DNA of 64,000 bases from Candidatus Portnoybacteria bacterium (GTDB taxonomy: Bacteria; Patescibacteriota; Minisyncoccia; Portnoybacterales; GWB1-42-6). The notes under the pieces were generated by a model that was given only the letters and a program-made list of their open reading frames with translations, was not told the DNA's origin and made no database searches. A program made the position numbers and the translations under genes. The DNA is taken from assembly GCA_016208745.1 (NCBI GenBank), contig JACQXN010000020.1:9062-73061 (forward strand), in the 5' to 3' direction. Within the stretch, counting starts at the first letter, position 1; each line of letters begins with the position of its first letter. This document shows positions 17,848 through 62,807 of this stretch, in pieces.

Positions 17848-17932
17848 TTGTGCAACCGGTAACTTGATCAATCGTTGCACAGTCTATTAAATCTCCCCTA
17901 GCCCCTCCTAAAGGAGGGGAATTACTCCTTAT

Positions 17933-20438: not shown

Positions 20439-21236
20439 TTATAACCATCCTCCCAACATAACAATTCCCAAGCCAATTAATATTACGCCGGCGATTAAAT
20501 GCAGAAGCCGGATTTTTTGTTTACGCCAATTTTCAGCGCGCTCTGGAGCAAGGCCCCAATACATCGCAAAAACTATAACTAACATTGGTAAAACAAAAAT
20601 TAAGTTGTAAATAATAAGATATAAAATCGCTTTGATAAACGAAACCTTGCTGGCTAGCATTCCAAGAATTACTACATAGGGCCCAGAAGTGCAGGGCAGT
20701 AAAAACAGGCTGATTAAAAGACCAATGGCAAATGCGCCAACGGGATTGGTTACCCTTTTTATCATGGATTTCATTTTTGGCCGCCAGCTTTGCGGAACTT
20801 CCATTAAAAAACCCTTGCCATACCAAAAATAATCCTTGATATTTAAAAGCCCAATAATTATGGCTAAAATGCCAATAACTTTATAAAAAACTCCTGAAAA
20901 AGAAAGAGTATATTGCCGGATAACAGCGAAAAGCCCGACGCCCATTAGGAAATAGGCAAGAAAAATTGCTGTGGTAAACGCCAGCCCCGCCCAAAGCGCC
21001 TTTTTCCTATTACTTTCATCAATTAGCATCGAGGCCATTAAAAGTATTAAAATAGCAAATTCACAGGGATTAATTGCATCAACCGCCGCGCCACAAATAA
21101 CTGCCACAGGCGTTAAATGCAGCGATTGAAGGCCTGTATGGCAGGCGGCTTCATCCGCAGAGGCAAATTCAGGCAATAAAAAAACAGCTGCAATAAGTAT
21201 TGATAAAGCTATCTTTACGGCTAAGTGTTTATTCAT
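20439..21236 (-). CDS. ccdA: Cytochrome c biogenesis / thiol-disulfide transporter CcdA (DsbD-family) membrane protein
   Basis: It has two conserved Cys in TM segments (NPCEF and LLPCTSGP), a signal peptide, and 6 TM segments. Confidence 0.7.
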   Translation of the reverse strand: MNKHLAVKIALSILIAAVFLLPEFASADEAACHTGLQSLHLTPVAVICGAAVDAINPCEFAILILLMASMLIDESNRKKALWAGLAFTTAIFLAYFLMGVGLFAVIRQYTLSFSGVFYKVIGILAIIIGLLNIKDYFWYGKGFLMEVPQSWRPKMKSMIKRVTNPVGAFAIGLLISLFLLPCTSGPYVVILGMLASKVSFIKAILYLIIYNLIFVLPMLVIVFAMYWGLAPERAENWRKQKIRLLHLIAGVILIGLGIVMLGGWL

Positions 21237-21365
21237 ATAGTCTTTGGATATAGTAGATCATATTTGAAAAAAAAGCAAAATTGAGGTAGAGTAAAATAAA
21301 AATCCACCCCGACCCTCCTTTTCCAAAGGAGGGGATATTCCTTCTTTCGAAAAAGGGAGGCCAAG

Positions 21366-21488
21366 ATGGATTTGGAATATATGGATAAATATGACCCGAA
21401 AAAAGTAGAGCCCAAATGGCAGAAGTTTTGGGAGGAACATCCCGAGCTTTTTTCAGCCAAAGAAGATTCCAAGGGAAAAAAGGAATAG
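21366..21488 (+). other. leuS: N-terminal 40 codons of leuS, separated from the main ORF by an in-frame TAG at 21486-21488
   Basis: The translation MDLEYMDKYDPKKVEPKWQKFWEEHPELFSAKEDSKGKKE is followed by TAG, then ILDMFPYPSGDG. This is the canonical LeuS N-terminus (YNPKEIExKWQKxW...). Confidence 0.8.
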
Positions 21489-21491
21489 ATT

Positions 21492-23987
21492 TTGGATATG
21501 TTTCCATATCCTTCAGGCGATGGTTTGCATACCGGGCATGTTGAAAGCTATACCGCAACAGATATCATTTCCCGTTATTGGCGTATGAAGGGAAAAAATG
21601 TTTTGCATCCGCAGGGCTTTGACGCTTTTGGTTTGCCGGCAGAAAACTTTGCCATTAAAACAAAGATTCATCCTTCGCAAACCACTCAAAAAGCAATTGC
21701 CACTTTCAAGCAGCAAATGAATATGCTCGGATTTTCCTATGATTGGTCGCGGGAAGTTAATTCGTCTGACCCAAAATATTATAAGTGGACACAATGGTTT
21801 TTTCTTTTACTTTACAAAAATGGTCTGGCATATAGGGGTAAAGCAAAAGTTAATTGGTGCAATTCTTGTCAAACGGTTTTGGCCAACGAACAGGCCGAAG
21901 GCGGAGTTTGCGAGCGATGCGGCAGTCCGGTTGTGCAAAAGGATTTGGAGCAGTGGTTTTTTAAAATTACTGATCTTATTGAATCCAAGGGCGCTACTTC
22001 CGGATTGCTACAGGGTCTTGATAAAATTGACTGGCCAGAATCAACCAAAGCCGGCCAGCGCAACTGGATAGGGAAGTCAGAGGGAGCGCAGTTTAAAATG
22101 GAAATTATAACCAGTACCACCCCGGCCTCCGGCCACCCCTCCTCAGCTGAGGAGGGGACGAAAGGGGAGGTGTTGGATTATATTGAAGTTTTTACAACGC
22201 GATTGGACACGGTTTTTGGGATGACTTTTGCCCTTATCGCTCCGGAACATAAGATTATCAACGAGCTTAAATCGCAAATTGAGAATTGGAGTGAGGTTGA
22301 AAAATATATTGAAGAGGCCAGGAAAAAATCAGAGTTGCAAAGAATTTCTGAAACCAAAGAAAAAACAGGAGTGGAAATAAAAGGCGTAAAAGTTATTAAT
22401 CCTTTTACCGAGCAGGAAATTCCGGTTTTTATTTCCGACTTTGTTTTAGCGCATTATGGAACAGGCGCTGTTATGGCCGTTCCCGGACACGACCAGCGCG
22501 ATTACGAATTTGCTAAAAAATTTAACCTGCCGATTATTGAAGTGATAAAAAGCGAGGACAGAAAATCATCAATTGAAAAGGAGGCATTTATAGAAGATGG
22601 GGTATTGGCTAATTCGCGCGAATACGACAATACAACTTCTGCAAAAGCACGCGAAAAATTAATTGAGTGGATCCAGAAAAATAATCTGGGCGAAAAGAAA
22701 ATTAATTACAAAATGCGCGATTGGTTGGTTTCGCGGCAAAGATATTGGGGCGCGCCAATCCCGATAATTTATTGTCCGCAATGTTGTCATTCCCGCCCCG
22801 CATCGCAGTACGGGGCGAATCTAGAAAACGAAAAATCTGGATCCCGGATCAAGTCCGGGATGACAGAATTTGAAATTACAGAGATTGACGGAAAAAAATA
22901 TGCGATGGTCCCCATTCCAGAAAAAGATTTACCAGTGCTTTTGCCTGATGATGTTGATTTTATGCCGCATGGCGAATCCCCTCTTTCAAAATCAAAAAAA
23001 TTTCACGATGTTTCGTGTCCAAAATGCGGAGAGAAGGCGAAAAGGGAGTCAGACACAATGGACACATTTGTCTGTTCCTCCTGGTATCATTTCCGTTATG
23101 CTGATCCGAAAAACGAAAAAGAATTTGCCAGCAAAGAGAAAATAGAGAAATGGTTGCCAGTTGATTTGTATGTTGGGGGCGCGGAGCATACGGTTTTACA
23201 TCTTTTGTATTCCCGTTTTTTTACCAAGGCCTTGCATAATCTCGGCTACATTGATTTTGACGAGCCGTTTTTAAAAATGCGGCATCAAGGAATAATTTTG
23301 GCTGAAGACGGCCAAAAAATGTCAAAGTCGCTCGGCAATGTTATCAATCCTGATTCGGTGGTGGCACAATATGGCGCCGATGCCTTACGGATGTTTGAAA
23401 TGTTTATGGGGCCGCTGGAAGATGCAAAACCTTGGAATACTAAGGGGATCACCGGGATCTATAGGTTTTTGGAGAAAGCATGGAGGATAAGCTTAAAGTT
23501 TAAAGTTAAAAGTGAAAAGTCAGGGCTAGAAGTTAAAAGTTTAATACATAAAACAATTAAGAAAGTTAGTGAAGACATAGAAAAATTAAAATTTAATACA
23601 GCTATCAGCGCATTAATGGTTTTGCTAAATGAGATTGAAAAAAACGAAGAAATGCCCATCGAGGTTTTTGAAAAGTTTTTAATTCTCCTTTCGCCCTTTG
23701 CGCCGCATATCTCAGAGGAGATTTGGTCACAGTTAGGTCATGAAGAAAGTATTTTTAAAGAAAAATGGCCTGAATATAATCCCGAATTAATTAAAGAAGA
23801 GATAATTGAGTTGATCATTCAGATTAACGGCAAGGTGCGCGATACGATTTCTGTGGCGGTTGATATTTCGGAAACTGACGCTAAAAAACTCGCGCTTGAA
23901 AGCGAGAAGATAAAAAAATATCTTTTGGGCAGAGAGCCAAAGAAAATTATTTTTGTTAAAGAGAAACTAATAAATATTGTATTGTGA
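21492..23987 (+). CDS. leuS: Leucyl-tRNA synthetase main ORF (TTG or ATG restart just after the TAG). It carries at least three in-frame repeat insertions.
   Basis: Contains MFPYPSGDGLHTGH (HIGH), KMSKSLGN, the editing domain and a Zn knuckle CPQC...CPKCG. The insertions are at 22118-22175, 22785-22865 and 23492-23547. Confidence 0.9.
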   Translation: MDMFPYPSGDGLHTGHVESYTATDIISRYWRMKGKNVLHPQGFDAFGLPAENFAIKTKIHPSQTTQKAIATFKQQMNMLGFSYDWSREVNSSDPKYYKWTQWFFLLLYKNGLAYRGKAKVNWCNSCQTVLANEQAEGGVCERCGSPVVQKDLEQWFFKITDLIESKGATSGLLQGLDKIDWPESTKAGQRNWIGKSEGAQFKMEIITSTTPASGHPSSAEEGTKGEVLDYIEVFTTRLDTVFGMTFALIAPEHKIINELKSQIENWSEVEKYIEEARKKSELQRISETKEKTGVEIKGVKVINPFTEQEIPVFISDFVLAHYGTGAVMAVPGHDQRDYEFAKKFNLPIIEVIKSEDRKSSIEKEAFIEDGVLANSREYDNTTSAKAREKLIEWIQKNNLGEKKINYKMRDWLVSRQRYWGAPIPIIYCPQCCHSRPASQYGANLENEKSGSRIKSGMTEFEITEIDGKKYAMVPIPEKDLPVLLPDDVDFMPHGESPLSKSKKFHDVSCPKCGEKAKRESDTMDTFVCSSWYHFRYADPKNEKEFASKEKIEKWLPVDLYVGGAEHTVLHLLYSRFFTKALHNLGYIDFDEPFLKMRHQGIILAEDGQKMSKSLGNVINPDSVVAQYGADALRMFEMFMGPLEDAKPWNTKGITGIYRFLEKAWRISLKFKVKSEKSGLEVKSLIHKTIKKVSEDIEKLKFNTAISALMVLLNEIEKNEEMPIEVFEKFLILLSPFAPHISEEIWSQLGHEESIFKEKWPEYNPELIKEEIIELIIQINGKVRDTISVAVDISETDAKKLALESEKIKKYLLGREPKKIIFVKEKLINIVL
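22785..22865. mobile_element. TGTCATTCCCGC-TIR MITE inserted in-frame (81 bp, 27 codons) inside leuS
   Basis: TGTCATTCCCGCCCCGCATCGCAGTACGGGGCGAATCTAG...ATCTGGATCCCGGATCAAGTCCGGGATGACA encodes the extra segment between CPQCC and EFEITEIDGKKY in the LeuS Zn-knuckle region. Confidence 0.65.
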
Positions 23988-27810: not shown

Positions 27811-27963
27811 CTACGGAATACAGATAAGTACAGATATACGGATAAAAACAAAATCCACCCCGCCCCTCCTTTAAAAAGGAGGGAGATTCCTCCCTTTGAA
27901 AAAGGGAGGGTAGGAGGGATTTGGATTTAATCTGTATATCTGTAATAAATCCATAATCCGTAG
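27811..27963. mobile_element. MITE-like element. It has roughly 35-bp terminal inverted repeats (CTACGGAATACAGATAAGTACAGATATACGGAT) and a CCTCC-family palindromic core.
   Basis: The left end 27811-27845 and the reverse complement of the right end 27925-27963 match. A second copy with the same TIRs and a different core is at 44658-44858. Confidence 0.6.
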
Positions 27964-35577: not shown

Positions 35578-37695
35578 TTATACGTTCTCATAATTTCTAA
35601 CGAGGTCCACCGCTTCATTCAGCATCTGGATATATAGATTAAGCCCCACGGCGTTGATTTGGCCTGATTGTTCGCGGCCCAAGATATTGCCTGCCCCGCG
35701 GATTTCCAAATCGCGCAGAGCGATTTGATAGCCAGAACCAAGCGCTTGCGCTTCTTTTAGCGCGTCTAATCTTTGTTGCGCAATGTCGGTCAGATTTTTT
35801 TCATTATACAAAAAATAGGCATAGGCCTGTTTATCAGAGCGCCCAATTCTGCCTCGCAATTGATAGCTTTGGGCCAGGCCAAGTTTTGTCGCGTTTGCAA
35901 CAATTAGAGTATTAACATTGGGAAAATCCAAGCCGTTTTCAATAATTGTTGTGGCCACTAGAATATCAATCTTTTTTTCGCCAAAATCATCCATCACTTT
36001 TATCAATTGTTTTTCGTTCATGCGGCCGTGAGCAATAGCAATATAAATTTTCCCCCCCTCCTTTTTAAAGCCTGCCTGTCCGGTAGGCAGGGAGGGGTGG
36101 GGTGGATTTTTTGAATTATCTCCATCCGTAGAATAAATCCCTCCCAGCCTCCCTTTAAAAAGGGAGGAGTTTTTTAGTAATTTCTCAATCTGCTTCTTTG
36201 CCAGTTCAATTGTTTCAATCCGATTATGCAGATAATAAATTTGTCCGCCTCGCTTTAATTCAAATTCAATCGCTTTTTTAATTGTTTTTGGTGAATAGGG
36301 TTCAATAAATGTTTTAACTGCCAATCGGCCGGGCGGCGCGGTTTGAATTAAACTGATATCGCGCAAGCCGGTTAAAGATAAATGCATTGTTCTTGGGATA
36401 GGCGTGGCGCTCAAACTTAAAATATCTATGTTGGCGCGCATTTCTTTAAATCGCTCTTTTTGTTTAACGCCAAATCTTTGTTCCTCATCTATTATAACTA
36501 GTCCAAGACTTGGAAACTCTACGTCTTTTTGAATGAGACGATGGGTGCCAATAACAATATCAGTCTGGCTGTCTTTAATTTGTTTTATGGTTTGAGCCTG
36601 ATTCTTTTTTGATTCCAATCTTGAAAGCAGCGCGATATTAATTGGAAATTTTTTAAGCCGGTTTAAAAAATTATGATAATGCTGGTGGGCTAAAATGGTT
36701 GTTGGCGTGATTAAAGCTACCTGTTTGCCAGCAGTTACTGCTTTAAAAGCCGCGCGCAAAGCGATCTCTGTTTTGCCAAAACCAACATCCCCGCAAATTA
36801 ATCTGTCCATTGGTTTTTCCGATTCCATATCTTTTTTAACGTCTCTCATAGCAGACAATTGATCTTCGGTTTCAATATATAAAAAAGAATCTTCCAGCTC
36901 TTTTTGCAAAGCGTCATCTGGCGGAAATTTAAAACCAGAAACTGCTGCGCGCTTGGCATAAATCTCCAATAATTCTTTAGCCAGATTCAAGGCGCTTTCT
37001 TTGATTTTTCTTTTGGTTTTATACCAGAGCGTTCCGCCAAGGCGATGCACAATCGGCGTTTCAAAGCCAATGTATCTGGTTAATTTTTCTTCCAGTTCAA
37101 GCGGCACATAAAGCCGGTCATTTTTGGCGTATTCTAAAACGAAATATTTTTCTTGACTCTCGGGCGTCGGCGAGTTAAAAGAAAGCTCGCCACCTAGTTC
37201 TTTGGCAAAGCCCTTAAAAATGCCAATGCCATGGTCCAGATGAACCAGATATTCATTCGGTTTTAAATTTGCCAGAAGTTGCGAAGGCGCTTGTTTTTTA
37301 AGGGCTTTCTTGATTGTTTCTGGCTTTTCGTCGATTTTAATTTCAAGAGAAAAAATTTCAGCCAGCTCATTGCCGGAAAATTCAAGGCGCAAGGCCGAAT
37401 CCATATTTATCGGAAAAATATCTAAGATCCCGCCGCGTTGGGAGAGCTCGCCGGGTCTAGCCAATGTTTGCACGCGCTCATAACCAAAATTAGTCAGTTT
37501 TCTTAATAGCTCAAATAGATTTATTCTCTGATTTTTTTCTAAAAAGATCGTATTATCCTTCCACCAGATCTGGGTTTTAGCTACTTCTTCTATTTTTTTT
37601 TGGTTTTCGGAGAACCAAAAGATATCCCGATCTAGGAAATACGGCGACAAGCTTGCAATTAGAATTTTAGTTGGATTTTTACTTTCTGATATCAT
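35578..37695 (-). CDS. mfd: Transcription-repair coupling factor Mfd, compact 705-aa form, carrying an in-frame palindromic-repeat insertion
   Basis: UvrB-homology region (ARPGELSQRGGILDIFP), SF2 helicase motifs (GDVGFGKTEIALRA, DEEQRFGV) and the TRG motif. The insertion ...KGRLGGIYSTDGDNSKNPPHPSLPTGQAGFKKEGG... is encoded by a CCTCC-family element at about 36050-36172. Confidence 0.8.
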   Translation of the reverse strand: MISESKNPTKILIASLSPYFLDRDIFWFSENQKKIEEVAKTQIWWKDNTIFLEKNQRINLFELLRKLTNFGYERVQTLARPGELSQRGGILDIFPINMDSALRLEFSGNELAEIFSLEIKIDEKPETIKKALKKQAPSQLLANLKPNEYLVHLDHGIGIFKGFAKELGGELSFNSPTPESQEKYFVLEYAKNDRLYVPLELEEKLTRYIGFETPIVHRLGGTLWYKTKRKIKESALNLAKELLEIYAKRAAVSGFKFPPDDALQKELEDSFLYIETEDQLSAMRDVKKDMESEKPMDRLICGDVGFGKTEIALRAAFKAVTAGKQVALITPTTILAHQHYHNFLNRLKKFPINIALLSRLESKKNQAQTIKQIKDSQTDIVIGTHRLIQKDVEFPSLGLVIIDEEQRFGVKQKERFKEMRANIDILSLSATPIPRTMHLSLTGLRDISLIQTAPPGRLAVKTFIEPYSPKTIKKAIEFELKRGGQIYYLHNRIETIELAKKQIEKLLKNSSLFKGRLGGIYSTDGDNSKNPPHPSLPTGQAGFKKEGGKIYIAIAHGRMNEKQLIKVMDDFGEKKIDILVATTIIENGLDFPNVNTLIVANATKLGLAQSYQLRGRIGRSDKQAYAYFLYNEKNLTDIAQQRLDALKEAQALGSGYQIALRDLEIRGAGNILGREQSGQINAVGLNLYIQMLNEAVDLVRNYENV

Positions 37696-54162: not shown

Positions 54163-54257
54163 ATAATTATTTCCCCCTTTATAAAAGGGGGATTCAGGGG
54201 GATTTTTAAAATCCCTCCCAGCCTCCTTTTTTCAAGGGAGGAGTAAGAAAACAAATA

Positions 54258-55621: not shown

Positions 55622-55684
55622 CAAAAAGGGGAATAAATCCACCCCACCCCTCCTTTTTCAAAGGAGGGAGTAAAAAAACAAATA

Positions 55685-56240: not shown

Positions 56241-56548
56241 AGAAGAAAGTTAATCCAAATTTTAACATCCGATTGTTAATCTGGCGCATAGGGGGCGAAG
56301 TTCTATAAATAATTTTTTTATAAATCCCTCCCAACCTCCCCTAAAGGGGAGGAGTAAAAAATTCCCCTCCTTTAGGAGGGGTTAGGGGAGATTTAGTAAA
56401 AGGTCGACATTGCCTGCTTTCCGCTTTTAGCGGTTTTCTGCCAAAAGCAGGGCAGTGAACTAGCACATTTTAAAAATAAAGGCAGAAAACAGATATTAAC
56501 GAATTGCGGATTAACGAATTTTAACGCGTTAGTTCGTTAATTCATAAA

Positions 56549-57412: not shown

Positions 57413-57737
57413 CTATTTTTTGCGAAACGAGCAGGAGAAGCTTTCGGGCTTCTCCTCTCGGATAAGCTCTTAATTTATTTCCCCCTTTTTAAAGGGGGAT
57501 AAAGGGGGATTTAAAAAGACAAATCTAAATCCACCCCTCCCCTCCTTTAAAAAGGAGGGGAGGAATATCGATTGATAGCTTATGCGAGGGAAAAATGCCA
57601 GAATTTCTAATTACTCCGCCCAAGGCGGATCCGCCTCTGGCGGATAATTCAATCCCAATGCCCAATGTCAAGATTTAAAAATTAGACATTTGGGAACTAA
57701 ATATTTTATTGGAAATTAGGAATTATTTAAGAAATTT

Positions 57738-58346: not shown

Positions 58347-58544
58347 ATTCACTGAATCATAAAGCGGGCATTTTTTGCCTCCCCTCCTCAGATGAGGAGG
58401 GGAATTAAAGGGGTGGTGGTGACCTTAATAATTCAACACCCCACCCTACCCCTCCCCTCATCTGAGGGGAGGGAAGACGCCTATTTTATAATTCAATGTT
58501 AAGCCAATATTTTAATCTAACTCCGGAGGGAAGTTATATCGGTT

Positions 58545-61349: not shown

Positions 61350-61691
61350 TTTTTTGAGGCTGAGTTTGTCTAATAATAACTTGATTAGCCACAAATCCTC
61401 CCTCGCCTCGCTTAAGCTCCGGCGAAGCGGGCCAGCCCTCCCCCGTATCAAGTACGGGGCAAGCTCTAAAGGGAGGGAGCAGGGATTATTCCCCTCCTTT
61501 AGGAGGGGTTAGGGGAGATTTAGATTGGTGTAAGAGTTAATTAATTTCAGGAACCATCGCAGATTACATTATTATTCATTAAACCCTAGGCTATTATTTG
61601 TTTGACAGGATTCCTTGAGGCGGTAAAATGATAAATAAACATCGCTTTTTTTGCAGCGGGCGAGTTTTAATAATTATTAAAACTATAAAAA

Positions 61692-62566: not shown

Positions 62567-62807
62567 TCTTTTTTCCTCCTCTCAGACTTGCCCCGTTCAG
62601 CGGGGTGAAGGAGAGGTAGGGTGGGGTGTTGAAAAGACAAATTTTACAATAATTCCCTCTCCTCAGTTGAGGAGAGGGGAAGGGTGAGGTGATGTTTTCA
62701 AATCAACACCACCCCCAACCCCTCCTCATCTGAGGAGGGGAGGAATCATTTTAGGGTTTTCCACAGATTTCTCCACATTTGGTTCACTTTTCATAAACAG
62801 CGCGATT

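What the first reader, a model, noticed from the sequence alone, without database searches (positions are those of the whole stretch)
22118..22175. Second repeat-derived in-frame segment in leuS (CCCCTCCTCAGCTGAGGAGGGG hairpin)
CCGGCCTCCGGCCACCCCTCCTCAGCTGAGGAGGGGACGAAAGGGGAGG encodes TPASGHPSSAEEGTKGEV within LeuS. The core CCCCTCCTCAG(C/A)TGAGGAGGGG is the same palindrome found in intergenic composite elements at 58382-58400 and 62655-62735.
Basis: seen in the sequence. Interest (0 to 1): 0.55.

Follow-up and report, generated by a model that had tools for sequence, protein, structure and literature searches.

The report
Triplex-forming DNA repeat inside leuS
A 60-base GC-rich repeat of the "intrastrand triplex motif" kind (like E. 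coli BoxC) sits in frame in the essential leucyl-tRNA synthetase gene of a Candidatus Portnoybacteria genome, adding about 19 residues to a surface loop that related bacteria have filled again and again with other repeats.

Summary
A perfect 22-nt palindrome, CCCCTCCTCAGCTGAGGAGGGG (22136-22157), lies in frame in leuS, and the same core occurs in intergenic composites at 58380-58473 and 62655-62740 (0 matches expected by chance).

73 of 119 LeuS orthologues have a basal 17-residue loop here, against 36 residues in the window.

The element is more specific than "a palindrome". It has the layout of a class II purine-motif intrastrand triplex motif: pyrimidine arm, loop, purine arm, linker, then a G/T/A strand that mirrors the purine arm. 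This is the kind of element known as BoxC, PIT or TM. Arm variants carry matching third-strand variants across many phyla.

About 12 such loci occur in the 64 kb window, and only leuS and mfd carry one inside a gene. The leuS insert maps to the tip of the first beta-hairpin of the editing domain. AlphaFold2 confidence there is below 50, and other lineages hold unrelated repeats or a 210-residue domain at the same place.

The same element sits at the same junctions in five LeuS lineages that do not group together. It is also in frame in miaA and guaA on other contigs.

Most likely this is a tolerated selfish or structure-prone repeat. How it spreads is unresolved.

The parts
21492..23987 (+). 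leuS ORF that hosts the insert. The HIGH-type motif (HTGH), KMSKS and the editing motif TTRLDT are intact.
   Evidence: It is 100% identical to P0001, named 'leucine--tRNA ligase [Candidatus Portnoybacteria bacterium]'. Pfam families tRNA-synt_1, tRNA-synt_1_2 and Anticodon_1 are recorded for the hits.
22116..22175 (+). The inserted repeat, 20 codons, encoding TTPASGHPSSAEEGTKGEVL. It is 70% G+C. The left end may reach 22107. About 3 ancestral codons (xGS) are missing, so the net gain is 19 codons.
   Evidence: Codon alignment with the empty sites L002 (P0011) and L148 (P0119) and with the filled sites L001, L149, L147 and L134. G+C.
22116..22123 (-). ACCACCCC. On the minus strand this is the third (reverse-Hoogsteen) strand GGGGTGGT(A) of a second, minus-strand triplex motif, with 8 of 9 triads.
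22124..22134 (.). Small GC hairpin GGCCTCCGGCC. It acts as the linker of the minus-strand motif. In other genomes this position holds hairpins of different sequence.
22136..22157 (.). Central perfect palindrome: pyrimidine arm CCCCTCCTC, centre AGCT, purine arm GAGGAGGGG.
22158..22163 (+). Linker ACGAAA (loop 2 of the plus-strand motif).
22164..22172 (+). Third strand GGGGAGGTG. It is the mirror image of the purine arm with G->G and A->A/T, giving 9 of 9 triads.
58380..58473 (.). Intergenic inverted doublet of the same family: plus-strand motif 58380-58418 (10/10 triads) and minus-strand motif 58437-58473 (10/10 triads).
62655..62740 (.). Intergenic doublet: plus-strand motif 62655-62691 (arm variant GAGGAGAGGG with the matching third strand GGGTGAGGTG, 10/10) and minus-strand motif 62707-62740 (9/9).

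Best explanation
The segment is a copy of a short, multi-copy, non-coding DNA repeat that landed in leuS.

The repeat has the sequence layout of a class II purine-motif intrastrand triplex motif. A pyrimidine arm and a purine arm form a hairpin. After a short linker, a G/T/A strand mirrors the purine arm, so that it could lie antiparallel in the major groove as G.G-C and A/T.A-T triads. The leuS copy carries such a third strand on both DNA strands.

The insert is 60 nt long and about 9 nt of target are gone, so the frame is kept. It has no stop codon in the frame used. It encodes a hydrophilic peptide with a low-confidence (probably disordered) structure prediction, at the tip of the first beta-hairpin of the CP1 editing domain.

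Inferred: the insert is neutral or nearly so for LeuS. It survives because this loop tolerates almost anything, while copies landing elsewhere in genes are removed by selection.

Shown: the anatomy, the family membership by sequence rules, the absence from most orthologues, the position in the predicted fold, and the depletion of the family from coding sequence.

Inferred: folding into a triplex in single-stranded DNA (by analogy with the E. coli motif studied in vitro in PMC4666352) and neutrality for the enzyme.

Unknown: the mechanism of copying and insertion.
For: Palindrome and chance.

Insertion relative to orthologues.

Mirror rule:
- 21 motif hits in the window against 0.07 in Markov-1 simulations.
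- A perfect mirror strand lies downstream of 119 of 278 hairpins, against 12 of 278 on the wrong (upstream) side.
- A hairpin's own arm fits its flank perfectly in 33.5% of cases, against 3.3% for arms swapped between elements, over 33 distinct arms.
- Individual covariations include AGAGGGGAGGA/AGGTGGGGTGT, GGAGAGGGGG/GGGGGTGAGG and GGGGAGAAGG/GGATGAGGGG.
- The P0055 leuS copy changed TCA/TGA/..G to TTA/TAA/..A on all three strands and keeps 9/9 triads.

Known class: PMC4666352 describes class II motifs and the TMECO/BoxC pattern CCCTCNCCC N3-6 GGGNGAGGG N3 GGGNGAGGG. It reports inverted pairs, no associated transposase, and triplex formation in vitro.

Structural position:
- The site aligns to the gap in T. 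thermophilus LeuS 1h3n around residues 228-236.
- The AlphaFold2 model has strands 195-207 and 227-235 flanking a coil with pLDDT below 50 at residues 210-223.
- 46 of 119 orthologues have an enlarged loop here. Four of them carry a roughly 210-residue insert in this loop, and PF01725 is among the Pfam families recorded for all four.

Selection filter: 2 of about 12 motif loci lie in genes, although at least 72% of the window is coding (P about 1e-4).

Mobility: the same element is in frame in miaA (L127) and guaA (L130) and is intergenic in high-GC contigs. The core is in frame in truB, a tRNA-binding-domain gene, a CCA-enzyme-like gene and a radical SAM gene of other Patescibacteria.
Against: No closer relative than about 76% identity exists in the databases. 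The empty site of this lineage is therefore not seen, and the exact boundaries are uncertain.

The insert DNA is much better conserved between lineages (0.88-0.91) than the gene (0.70-0.72). The five carriers share identical junctions without being sister lineages. A purely passive, random-insertion model does not predict either point.

Triplex folding was not measured. In the two-sided leuS copy, ordinary Watson-Crick folding gives a competing three-way junction.

An in-frame TAG upstream (21486-21488) raises the possibility that this leuS copy is damaged.
Confidence: 0.75

Rival explanations
1. The element is kept inside leuS because its DNA (or RNA) structure does something there. It might pause replication, transcription or translation at the boundary between the catalytic body and the editing domain. 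It might also act as a site-specific homing or recombination signal.
For: Insert DNA is 0.88-0.91 identical between lineages whose leuS genes are 0.70-0.72 identical. The P0055 copy keeps both the hairpin and the triads through changes on all three strands, while the peptide changes from SSAEEG to SLTKEG. The junctions are identical in five non-sister lineages. The plus-strand RNA would fold at -41.4 kcal/mol, z = -4.2.
Against: Most orthologues do without it. Unrelated repeat families and a whole domain occupy the same loop, which fits tolerance better than function. In E. coli no effect of these motifs on transcription, termination or conjugation was found (PMC4666352). Conservation can also come from recent transfer.
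Confidence: 0.1
2. The extra peptide is an adaptive addition to LeuS, for example a new contact with tRNA or a partner protein. Its likeness to a repeat is secondary.
For: The peptide TTPASGHPSSAEEG.GEVL recurs in five LeuS lineages and in MiaA.
Against: AlphaFold2 confidence is low across the segment. Variation follows DNA pairing rules, not residue similarity. The same DNA is common between genes and is read in other frames in spurious ORFs. The loop holds unrelated sequences in other lineages.
Confidence: 0.06
3. The segment was present in the ancestor of these LeuS proteins and was lost or replaced many times.
For: The five carriers share the same junctions and the same missing xGS codons.
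Against: Carriers are scattered among plain, hydrolase-bearing and NUDIX-bearing LeuS forms. Their nearest relatives have the 17-residue loop. The 17-residue form keeps the consensus xGSDK, which the carriers lack, so loss would have to rebuild it. An ancient neutral insert should not be 90% identical at the DNA level.
Confidence: 0.05
4. The segment is an assembly artefact, a chimeric join through a repeat.
For: The source is a metagenome-assembled genome. Repeats are frequent in it.
Against: The reading frame is intact for 831 codons on both sides. Independent assemblies from JGI and ENA carry the same insert at the same place in orthologous genes: L001, L126, L133, L142, L134, L147 and L149.
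Confidence: 0.03

Closest known systems
BoxC / PIT elements / TM (TMECO) intrastrand triplex motifs of E. coli, Enterobacter and cyanobacteria (Hoyne et al. 2000, as cited in Holder et al. 2015, PMC4666352)
   Same: The order is pyrimidine arm, loop, purine arm, short linker, mirror G/T/A strand (class II purine motif). Arms are 9-10 nt and G/C-rich. There are many copies per genome, often as inverted pairs. No transposase is nearby. Sequence identity between copies is high.
   Different: The arm sequence differs (CCCCTCCTC/GAGGAGGGG, not CCCTCNCCC/GGGNGAGGG). A variant uses a small GC hairpin in place of the 3-nt second loop. The hosts are Patescibacteria, Acidobacteriota, Bacteroidota and Bathyarchaeia rather than Proteobacteria. 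TMECO is reported as always intergenic in E. coli, whereas this copy is translated inside an essential gene.
Rickettsia palindromic elements (RPE; Ogata et al. 2000 and 2002, as summarised in PMC10969869)
   Same: These are palindromic repeats inserted in frame into unrelated housekeeping genes. They add a peptide at places compatible with the fold. Copies are also found between genes.
   Different: RPEs are about 100-150 bp and confined to Rickettsia, and each family encodes its own conserved peptide. They are not triplex-type mirror repeats. The element here is 60 nt and its family crosses phyla.
REP / REPIN elements mobilised by RAYT transposases
   Same: These are short GC-rich palindromes, present in many copies, with inverted doublets that fold into long hairpins.
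   Different: REPs are extragenic and are tied to a RAYT gene and a conserved GTAG tetranucleotide. Neither link was established here. REP families are species-specific, whereas this core recurs across phyla. REPs carry no mirror third strand.
MITEs found inside genes (ERIC, Nezha, Correia and others)
   Same: These are small non-autonomous repeats that can create in-frame fusions.
   Different: MITEs have terminal inverted repeats plus target-site duplications and a parent IS. No duplication is visible at the leuS junctions and no parent element is known.

Membership tests
Class II purine-motif intrastrand triplex motif (ITxF criteria of PMC4666352: stems 6-15 nt, at most 1 mismatch, loops 1-6 nt) | Homopyrimidine arm followed by a complementary homopurine arm of at least 8 nt | tested here: met
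   CCCCTCCTC / GAGGAGGGG is a 9-nt homopurine stretch within an 11-bp perfect stem.
Class II purine-motif intrastrand triplex motif (ITxF criteria of PMC4666352: stems 6-15 nt, at most 1 mismatch, loops 1-6 nt) | A third strand 3' of the purine arm that is its mirror image (G for G, A or T for A) | tested here: met
   Plus strand GGGGAGGTG gives 9/9 triads. Minus strand GGGGTGGTA gives 8/9.
Class II purine-motif intrastrand triplex motif (ITxF criteria of PMC4666352: stems 6-15 nt, at most 1 mismatch, loops 1-6 nt) | Both loops of 1-6 nt | tested here: inconclusive
   The plus-strand motif meets it (centre AGCT, linker ACGAAA of 6 nt). The minus-strand motif has a 12-nt linker that is itself a hairpin, which is outside the published limit.
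Class II purine-motif intrastrand triplex motif (ITxF criteria of PMC4666352: stems 6-15 nt, at most 1 mismatch, loops 1-6 nt) | More copies than chance gives | tested here: met
   21 hits in 64 kb against 0.07 in simulations. The own-arm against swapped-arm test gave 33.5% against 3.3%.
Class II purine-motif intrastrand triplex motif (ITxF criteria of PMC4666352: stems 6-15 nt, at most 1 mismatch, loops 1-6 nt) | Folds into a triplex (CD, NMR, DMS footprint) | not testable with these tools
   Only nearest-neighbour Watson-Crick folding is available here.
TMECO / BoxC in the strict sense | Pattern CCCTCNCCC N3-6 GGGNGAGGG N3 GGGNGAGGG | tested here: not met
   The leuS arms are CCCCTCCTC / GAGGAGGGG. 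Hairpins with the arm GGGAGAGGG, and in some cases the third strand GGGTGAGGG, do occur in some fetched loci such as L021.
TMECO / BoxC in the strict sense | Intergenic location | tested here: not met
   The copy lies inside the leuS reading frame.
Rickettsia palindromic elements | Element of about 100-150 bp in Rickettsia with a family-specific peptide | tested here: not met
   The element is 60 nt and the host is Candidatus Portnoybacteria. No RPE sequences were compared.
Rickettsia palindromic elements | In-frame insertion into unrelated genes at fold-compatible sites | tested here: met
   Hosts are leuS, mfd, miaA, guaA, truB and others. The leuS site is a low-confidence loop tip.
REP / REPIN with RAYT | Cognate RAYT (Y1 transposase) gene and GTAG-flanked palindrome | not tested
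   Window ORFs were not screened for Y1 transposases. No GTAG check was made.
MITE | Target-site duplication flanking terminal inverted repeats | tested here: inconclusive
   The ends are palindromic (ATCACCACCCC ... GGGGAGGTGCTGGAT). No direct duplication is seen at the leuS junctions, and about 9 nt of target are missing instead. The empty site of this exact lineage is unavailable.

The most novel reading that the evidence does not exclude
Triplex-type repeats are not merely tolerated in genes of Candidate Phyla Radiation bacteria. Either they reach one precise site in leuS repeatedly by site-specific insertion, or they are passed between lineages on short recombination tracts. Their three-strand geometry is then kept by selection inside the coding sequence. 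That would make them active, structure-dependent elements that reshape surface loops of essential enzymes, and it would explain why the same 36-60 nt sequence is shared by unrelated phyla.
Probability: 0.15. Interest if true: 0.8.

Novelty: new variant of a known kind. Interest (0 to 1): 0.58.

Why it matters
Two known things meet here.

Intrastrand triplex motifs (BoxC, PIT, TM) were described as strictly intergenic in E. coli, with no known function or means of spread. In-frame palindromic repeats in housekeeping genes were regarded as a peculiarity of Rickettsia.

In Patescibacteria, triplex-type repeats are translated inside leuS, mfd, miaA, guaA, truB and other genes. One LeuS loop has been filled independently by at least five repeat families and by a whole domain.

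This has three consequences:
- It gives a natural map of permissive loops in essential enzymes.
- It warns annotators that odd low-complexity inserts in proteins of these bacteria are repeat DNA.
- The identical junctions in non-sister lineages, and the three-way covariation inside a coding sequence, offer a concrete way to ask how these motifs move and whether their DNA structure is under selection.

I found no paper in the held library that describes this for these bacteria.

Tried and rejected
Rfam:
- The window at gathering thresholds gave only a tRNA.
- Six loci rich in the element, searched at E <= 0.1, gave nothing at the element.
- It is therefore not a curated RNA family.

Literature:
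- No paper holds the core sequence.
- Searches for in-frame palindromic repeats in CPR, Patescibacteria or Parcubacteria gave nothing relevant.
- A search for follow-up work on BoxC/PIT motifs from 2016 on listed nothing on motifs inside genes among its top 15 results; most of its 6,690 hits came from the unrelated word 'BoxCar'.

Peptide search:
- A doubled 42-residue query found no candidates.

Watson-Crick pairing of the G-rich box with the pyrimidine arm: checked by hand on the sequences. It gives 2 mismatches plus a wobble in 9 positions, and is worse in the arm variants, whereas the mirror rule is perfect. Rejected.

A direct repeat of the purine arm as an alternative hairpin partner: rejected on the same variants.

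TAG reassignment as the reason for the in-frame TAG: rejected, because TAG closes 13 of 41 long ORFs.

Shared descent of the five carriers: neighbour-joining with 100 bootstraps never grouped any of them. The tree is star-like, so this is not decisive.

Recombination tract:
- Identity between the window and P0003 is raised only over the insert and the 20 codons to its right (0.89 against 0.77 for a non-carrier). The stretch is too short to be significant.
- The P0005 rows of that table failed and are not used.

Phage carriage: only 1 viral contig holds the core.
Full report
**What is there**

The window is 40.6% G+C. Its leuS ORF (21492..23987, +) is 100% identical to a protein named leucine--tRNA ligase of a Candidatus Portnoybacteria genome bin.

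At 22136-22157 lies a perfect 22-nt palindrome, CCCCTCCTCAGCTGAGGAGGGG. It is read in frame as part of ..IITSTTPASGHPSSAEEGTKGEVLDYIEVF... The same core occurs at 58381-58402, at 62719-62740 and, with two changes, at 62655-62678. No shuffled copy of the window gave a single match.

**It is an insertion**

I aligned 70 orthologues of 68-76% identity (A1). The stretch between NWIGKSEG and TTRLDT is 17 residues in 41 of them (consensus AQFKMxIxGSDKxIEVF) and 36 in the window. Over all 120 hits, 73 have the basal loop and 46 an enlarged one.

The syntenic empty site of P0011 reads ATG GGA ATT TCC GGC ATA GAC AAA AAG CTT GGT GTT (L002). Codon alignments place about 60 nt of new DNA (22116-22175, 70% G+C) between the Ile codon and the Asp codon. 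About three ancestral codons (xGS) are missing.

**What the element is**

By record title these come from Hymenobacter and Solirubrum, Terriglobia and other Acidobacteriota, many Patescibacteria, Bathyarchaeia, a cyanobacterium and others.

In 106 of 135 occurrences, a box GGGGTGGTG (at most 1 mismatch) lies within 50 nt on one or both sides. It is separated from the palindrome by 3-8 nt, or by a small GC hairpin whose sequence varies while its pairing is kept.

The box is the mirror image of the purine arm, with G kept and A replaced by T or A. That is the rule for a third strand lying antiparallel to the purine strand in a purine-motif triple helix.

The rule holds when the arm changes:
- Window 62655: arm GAGGAGAGGG, third strand GGGTGAGGTG.
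- Window 58450 (minus strand): GAGGGGAGGG, GGGTGGGGTG.
- Window 21313 (minus strand): AAAGGAGGG, GGGTGGATT.
- L017: AGAGGGGAGGA, AGGTGGGGTGT.
- L077: GGAGAGGGGG, GGGGGTGAGG.
- L117: GGGGAGAAGG, GGATGAGGGG.

Statistical support:
- A perfect mirror strand follows 119 of 278 pyrimidine-purine hairpins, against 12 of 278 on the wrong side.
- A hairpin's own arm fits its flank ten times more often than arms swapped between elements (33.5% against 3.3%, 33 distinct arms).
- The window has 21 such hits (about 12 loci), against 0.07 in simulated sequence.

Watson-Crick pairing of the box with the pyrimidine arm does not fit these variants. Neither does a direct repeat of the purine arm.

**It is a described class**

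Holder et al. 2015 (PMC4666352) describe exactly this layout as class II intrastrand triplex motifs. Their E. coli example is TMECO, earlier called BoxC and PIT, with the pattern CCCTCNCCC N3-6 GGGNGAGGG N3 GGGNGAGGG.

According to that paper, TMECO:
- forms a triplex in vitro;
- occurs in inverted pairs;
- has no transposase nearby;
- is always intergenic in E. coli;
- marks unstable genomic sites.

The paper also states that purine-motif triplexes do not form in RNA.

The leuS element obeys the class rules but not the TMECO sequence pattern. Rfam has no family for it.

**Anatomy of the leuS copy**

| Coordinates | Sequence | Role |
|---|---|---|
| 22116-22123 | ACCACCCC | Complement of a minus-strand third strand (8/9 triads) |
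| 22124-22134 | GGCCTCCGGCC | Small hairpin |
| 22136-22157 | CCCCTCCTCAGCTGAGGAGGGG | Central palindrome |
| 22158-22163 | ACGAAA | Linker |
| 22164-22172 | GGGGAGGTG | Plus-strand third strand (9/9 triads) |

As ordinary single-stranded DNA the block folds into a three-way junction (-19.2 kcal/mol, z = -3.1). As RNA the value is -41.4 kcal/mol. In this two-sided copy, therefore, a Watson-Crick fold competes with the triplex.

**Where it sits in the protein**

The site aligns to a gap in T. thermophilus LeuS (1h3n, about residues 228-236..ILFPVEGKEVRIPVFTTRPDT). That is the first beta-hairpin of the editing domain, just before the TTRPDT motif.

The AlphaFold2 model (mean pLDDT 75.5) has strands 195-207 and 227-235 around a coil with pLDDT below 50 at residues 210-223.

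Other lineages carry unrelated repeat-like peptides in the same loop, for example ..SEAKQSH..PRNDK..VILSPKGEES..RSFA.AQDDK..FQFSNKSQN.. and ..PSSFKGEG... Four lineages carry a domain-sized insert of about 210 residues there, and all four have PF01725 among their recorded Pfam families. L120 and L121 show other triplex-type repeats at this loop, and L121 has them elsewhere in leuS as well.

The loop is thus a permissive site. Within the window only 2 of about 12 motif loci lie in genes, although at least 72% of the window is coding (P about 1e-4). That is what a selection filter would give.

**Spread**

The same element, with the same junctions, is present in five LeuS sequences:
- P0001 (the window);
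- P0003 (EIIVSTTSASGHPSSAEEGKKGEVLDYIEVF);
- P0005 (the L134 type);
- P0006 (L001, L126, L133, L142);
- P0055.

These belong to plain, hydrolase-bearing and NUDIX-bearing LeuS forms. Their nearest relatives have empty or differently filled sites. No grouping of carriers appeared in 100 bootstraps.

Insert DNA is 0.88-0.91 identical between carriers whose genes are 0.70-0.72 identical. The P0055 copy has changed all three strands together and keeps 9/9 triads.

A metagenome scan for the 36-nt left part found 24 contigs. Four carry leuS. One carries miaA with NDNTTPASGHPSSAEEGKGEVLKR in frame. One carries guaA. The rest are mostly intergenic sites in high-GC contigs.

In species-representative Patescibacteria the core is in frame in four further genes: truB, a gene with a tRNA-binding domain, a gene with HD and CCA-type tRNA nucleotidyltransferase domains, and a radical SAM gene.

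The element is therefore mobile in some sense and often ends up translated. I cannot decide from these data whether the five leuS copies reflect site-specific insertion, short recombination tracts or old ancestry with turnover.

**Verdict**

It is best described as a BoxC/PIT/TM-type triplex motif behaving like a Rickettsia palindromic element (PMC10969869), in a Candidate Phyla Radiation bacterium, at a recurrent hot spot.

The most likely account is a tolerated selfish or structure-prone repeat. The conservation of its three-strand geometry, and the identical junctions in non-sister lineages, remain unexplained.

Noticed in passing
window 21366-21491: An ATG at 21366 opens the normal LeuS N-terminus (MDLEYMDKYDPKKVEPKWQKFWEEHPELF..KGKKE). 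It is in frame with the ORF at 21492 but separated from it by TAG at 21486-21488, where orthologues have Tyr (K.YILDMFPYPSG). TAG is an ordinary stop in this window (13 of 41 long ORFs), so this is a nonsense change, a split gene or a sequencing error. The public record starts the protein at the Met after the TAG.
   Followed up: partly
window 22790-22870: A second in-frame insert in leuS (CHSRPASQYGANLENEKSGSRIKSGMT) is made of two other GC hairpins (CGCCCCG..CGGGGCG and ATCCCGGA..TCCGGGAT) and is not triplex-type. It sits at IIYCxKC|GE|VPVPEKDLPV, a second hot spot where other orthologues carry different repeats. AlphaFold2 pLDDT is below 50 at residues 435-457.
   Followed up: partly
window 36050-36167 (minus strand): An inverted doublet of triplex-type repeats (CCTCCCTTTTTAAAGGGAGG ctg GGAGGGATT, 9/9 triads, plus a partner with a nested hairpin) is translated in frame inside mfd (..LLKNSSLFKGRLGGIYSTDGDNSKNPPHPSLPTGQAGFKKEGGKIYIAIAHGRM..). 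It interrupts the Helicase_C domain. Orthologues were not compared.
   Followed up: partly
window 17891-17919, 21301-21333, 27851-27921, 54172-54204, 55636-55668, 56324-56392, 57480-57563, 61491-61519: These are further intergenic triplex-type motifs with other arms (CCCTCCTTT.., CCTCCCTTT.., TCCCCCTTT..), each followed by its own mirror strand (GGGTGGATT, GGAGGGATT, AGGGGGATT). That is about one locus per 5 kb. They generate spurious ORFs of about 100 residues, such as 21229..21558 (-).
   Followed up: partly
window 62577-62611: The hairpin CCTCCTCTCAGACTTGCCCCGTTCAGCGGGGTGAAGGAGAGG has its loop replaced by a nested GC hairpin. It is followed by GGGTGGGGTG, which does not mirror its own arm. 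It looks like a hybrid or decayed copy.
   Followed up: no
P0025, P0047, P0070, P0106; P0003, P0005, P0021, P0041 etc.; P0055, P0119 etc.: LeuS of these bacteria also carries whole-domain insertions. An insert of about 210 residues sits in the same hairpin loop, in proteins that have PF01725 (Ham1/ITPase) on record. Alpha/beta-hydrolase domains (PF06821, PF00561) and NUDIX domains (PF00293) sit elsewhere in other lineages.
   Followed up: no
L121 2115-2200, 2324-2426, 2811-2892: The leuS gene of P0083 carries triplex-type repeats at three separate places in the coding sequence, not just at the hot spot.
   Followed up: no
L130 and L112: Two different contigs carry the palindromic core in frame just after a ..YLKYRGAEI.. 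stretch. In L130 the ORF is guaA (Pfam GMP_synt_C). The L112 ORF was not checked against Pfam, so a second hot spot in GMP synthase is only a lead.
   Followed up: no
L005, L026, L045 and many Terriglobia loci: In Acidobacteriota the element is part of a larger unit of about 100 nt: GGCGCCA, CCCCTCCTGAATCAGGAGGGG, a spacer, CCCCTCCTCAGATGAGGAGGGG, TGGCGCGCCGAGCGCCG, GGGTGGTGCTGA. GGCGCCA and TGGCGCC could pair around both hairpins.
   Followed up: no
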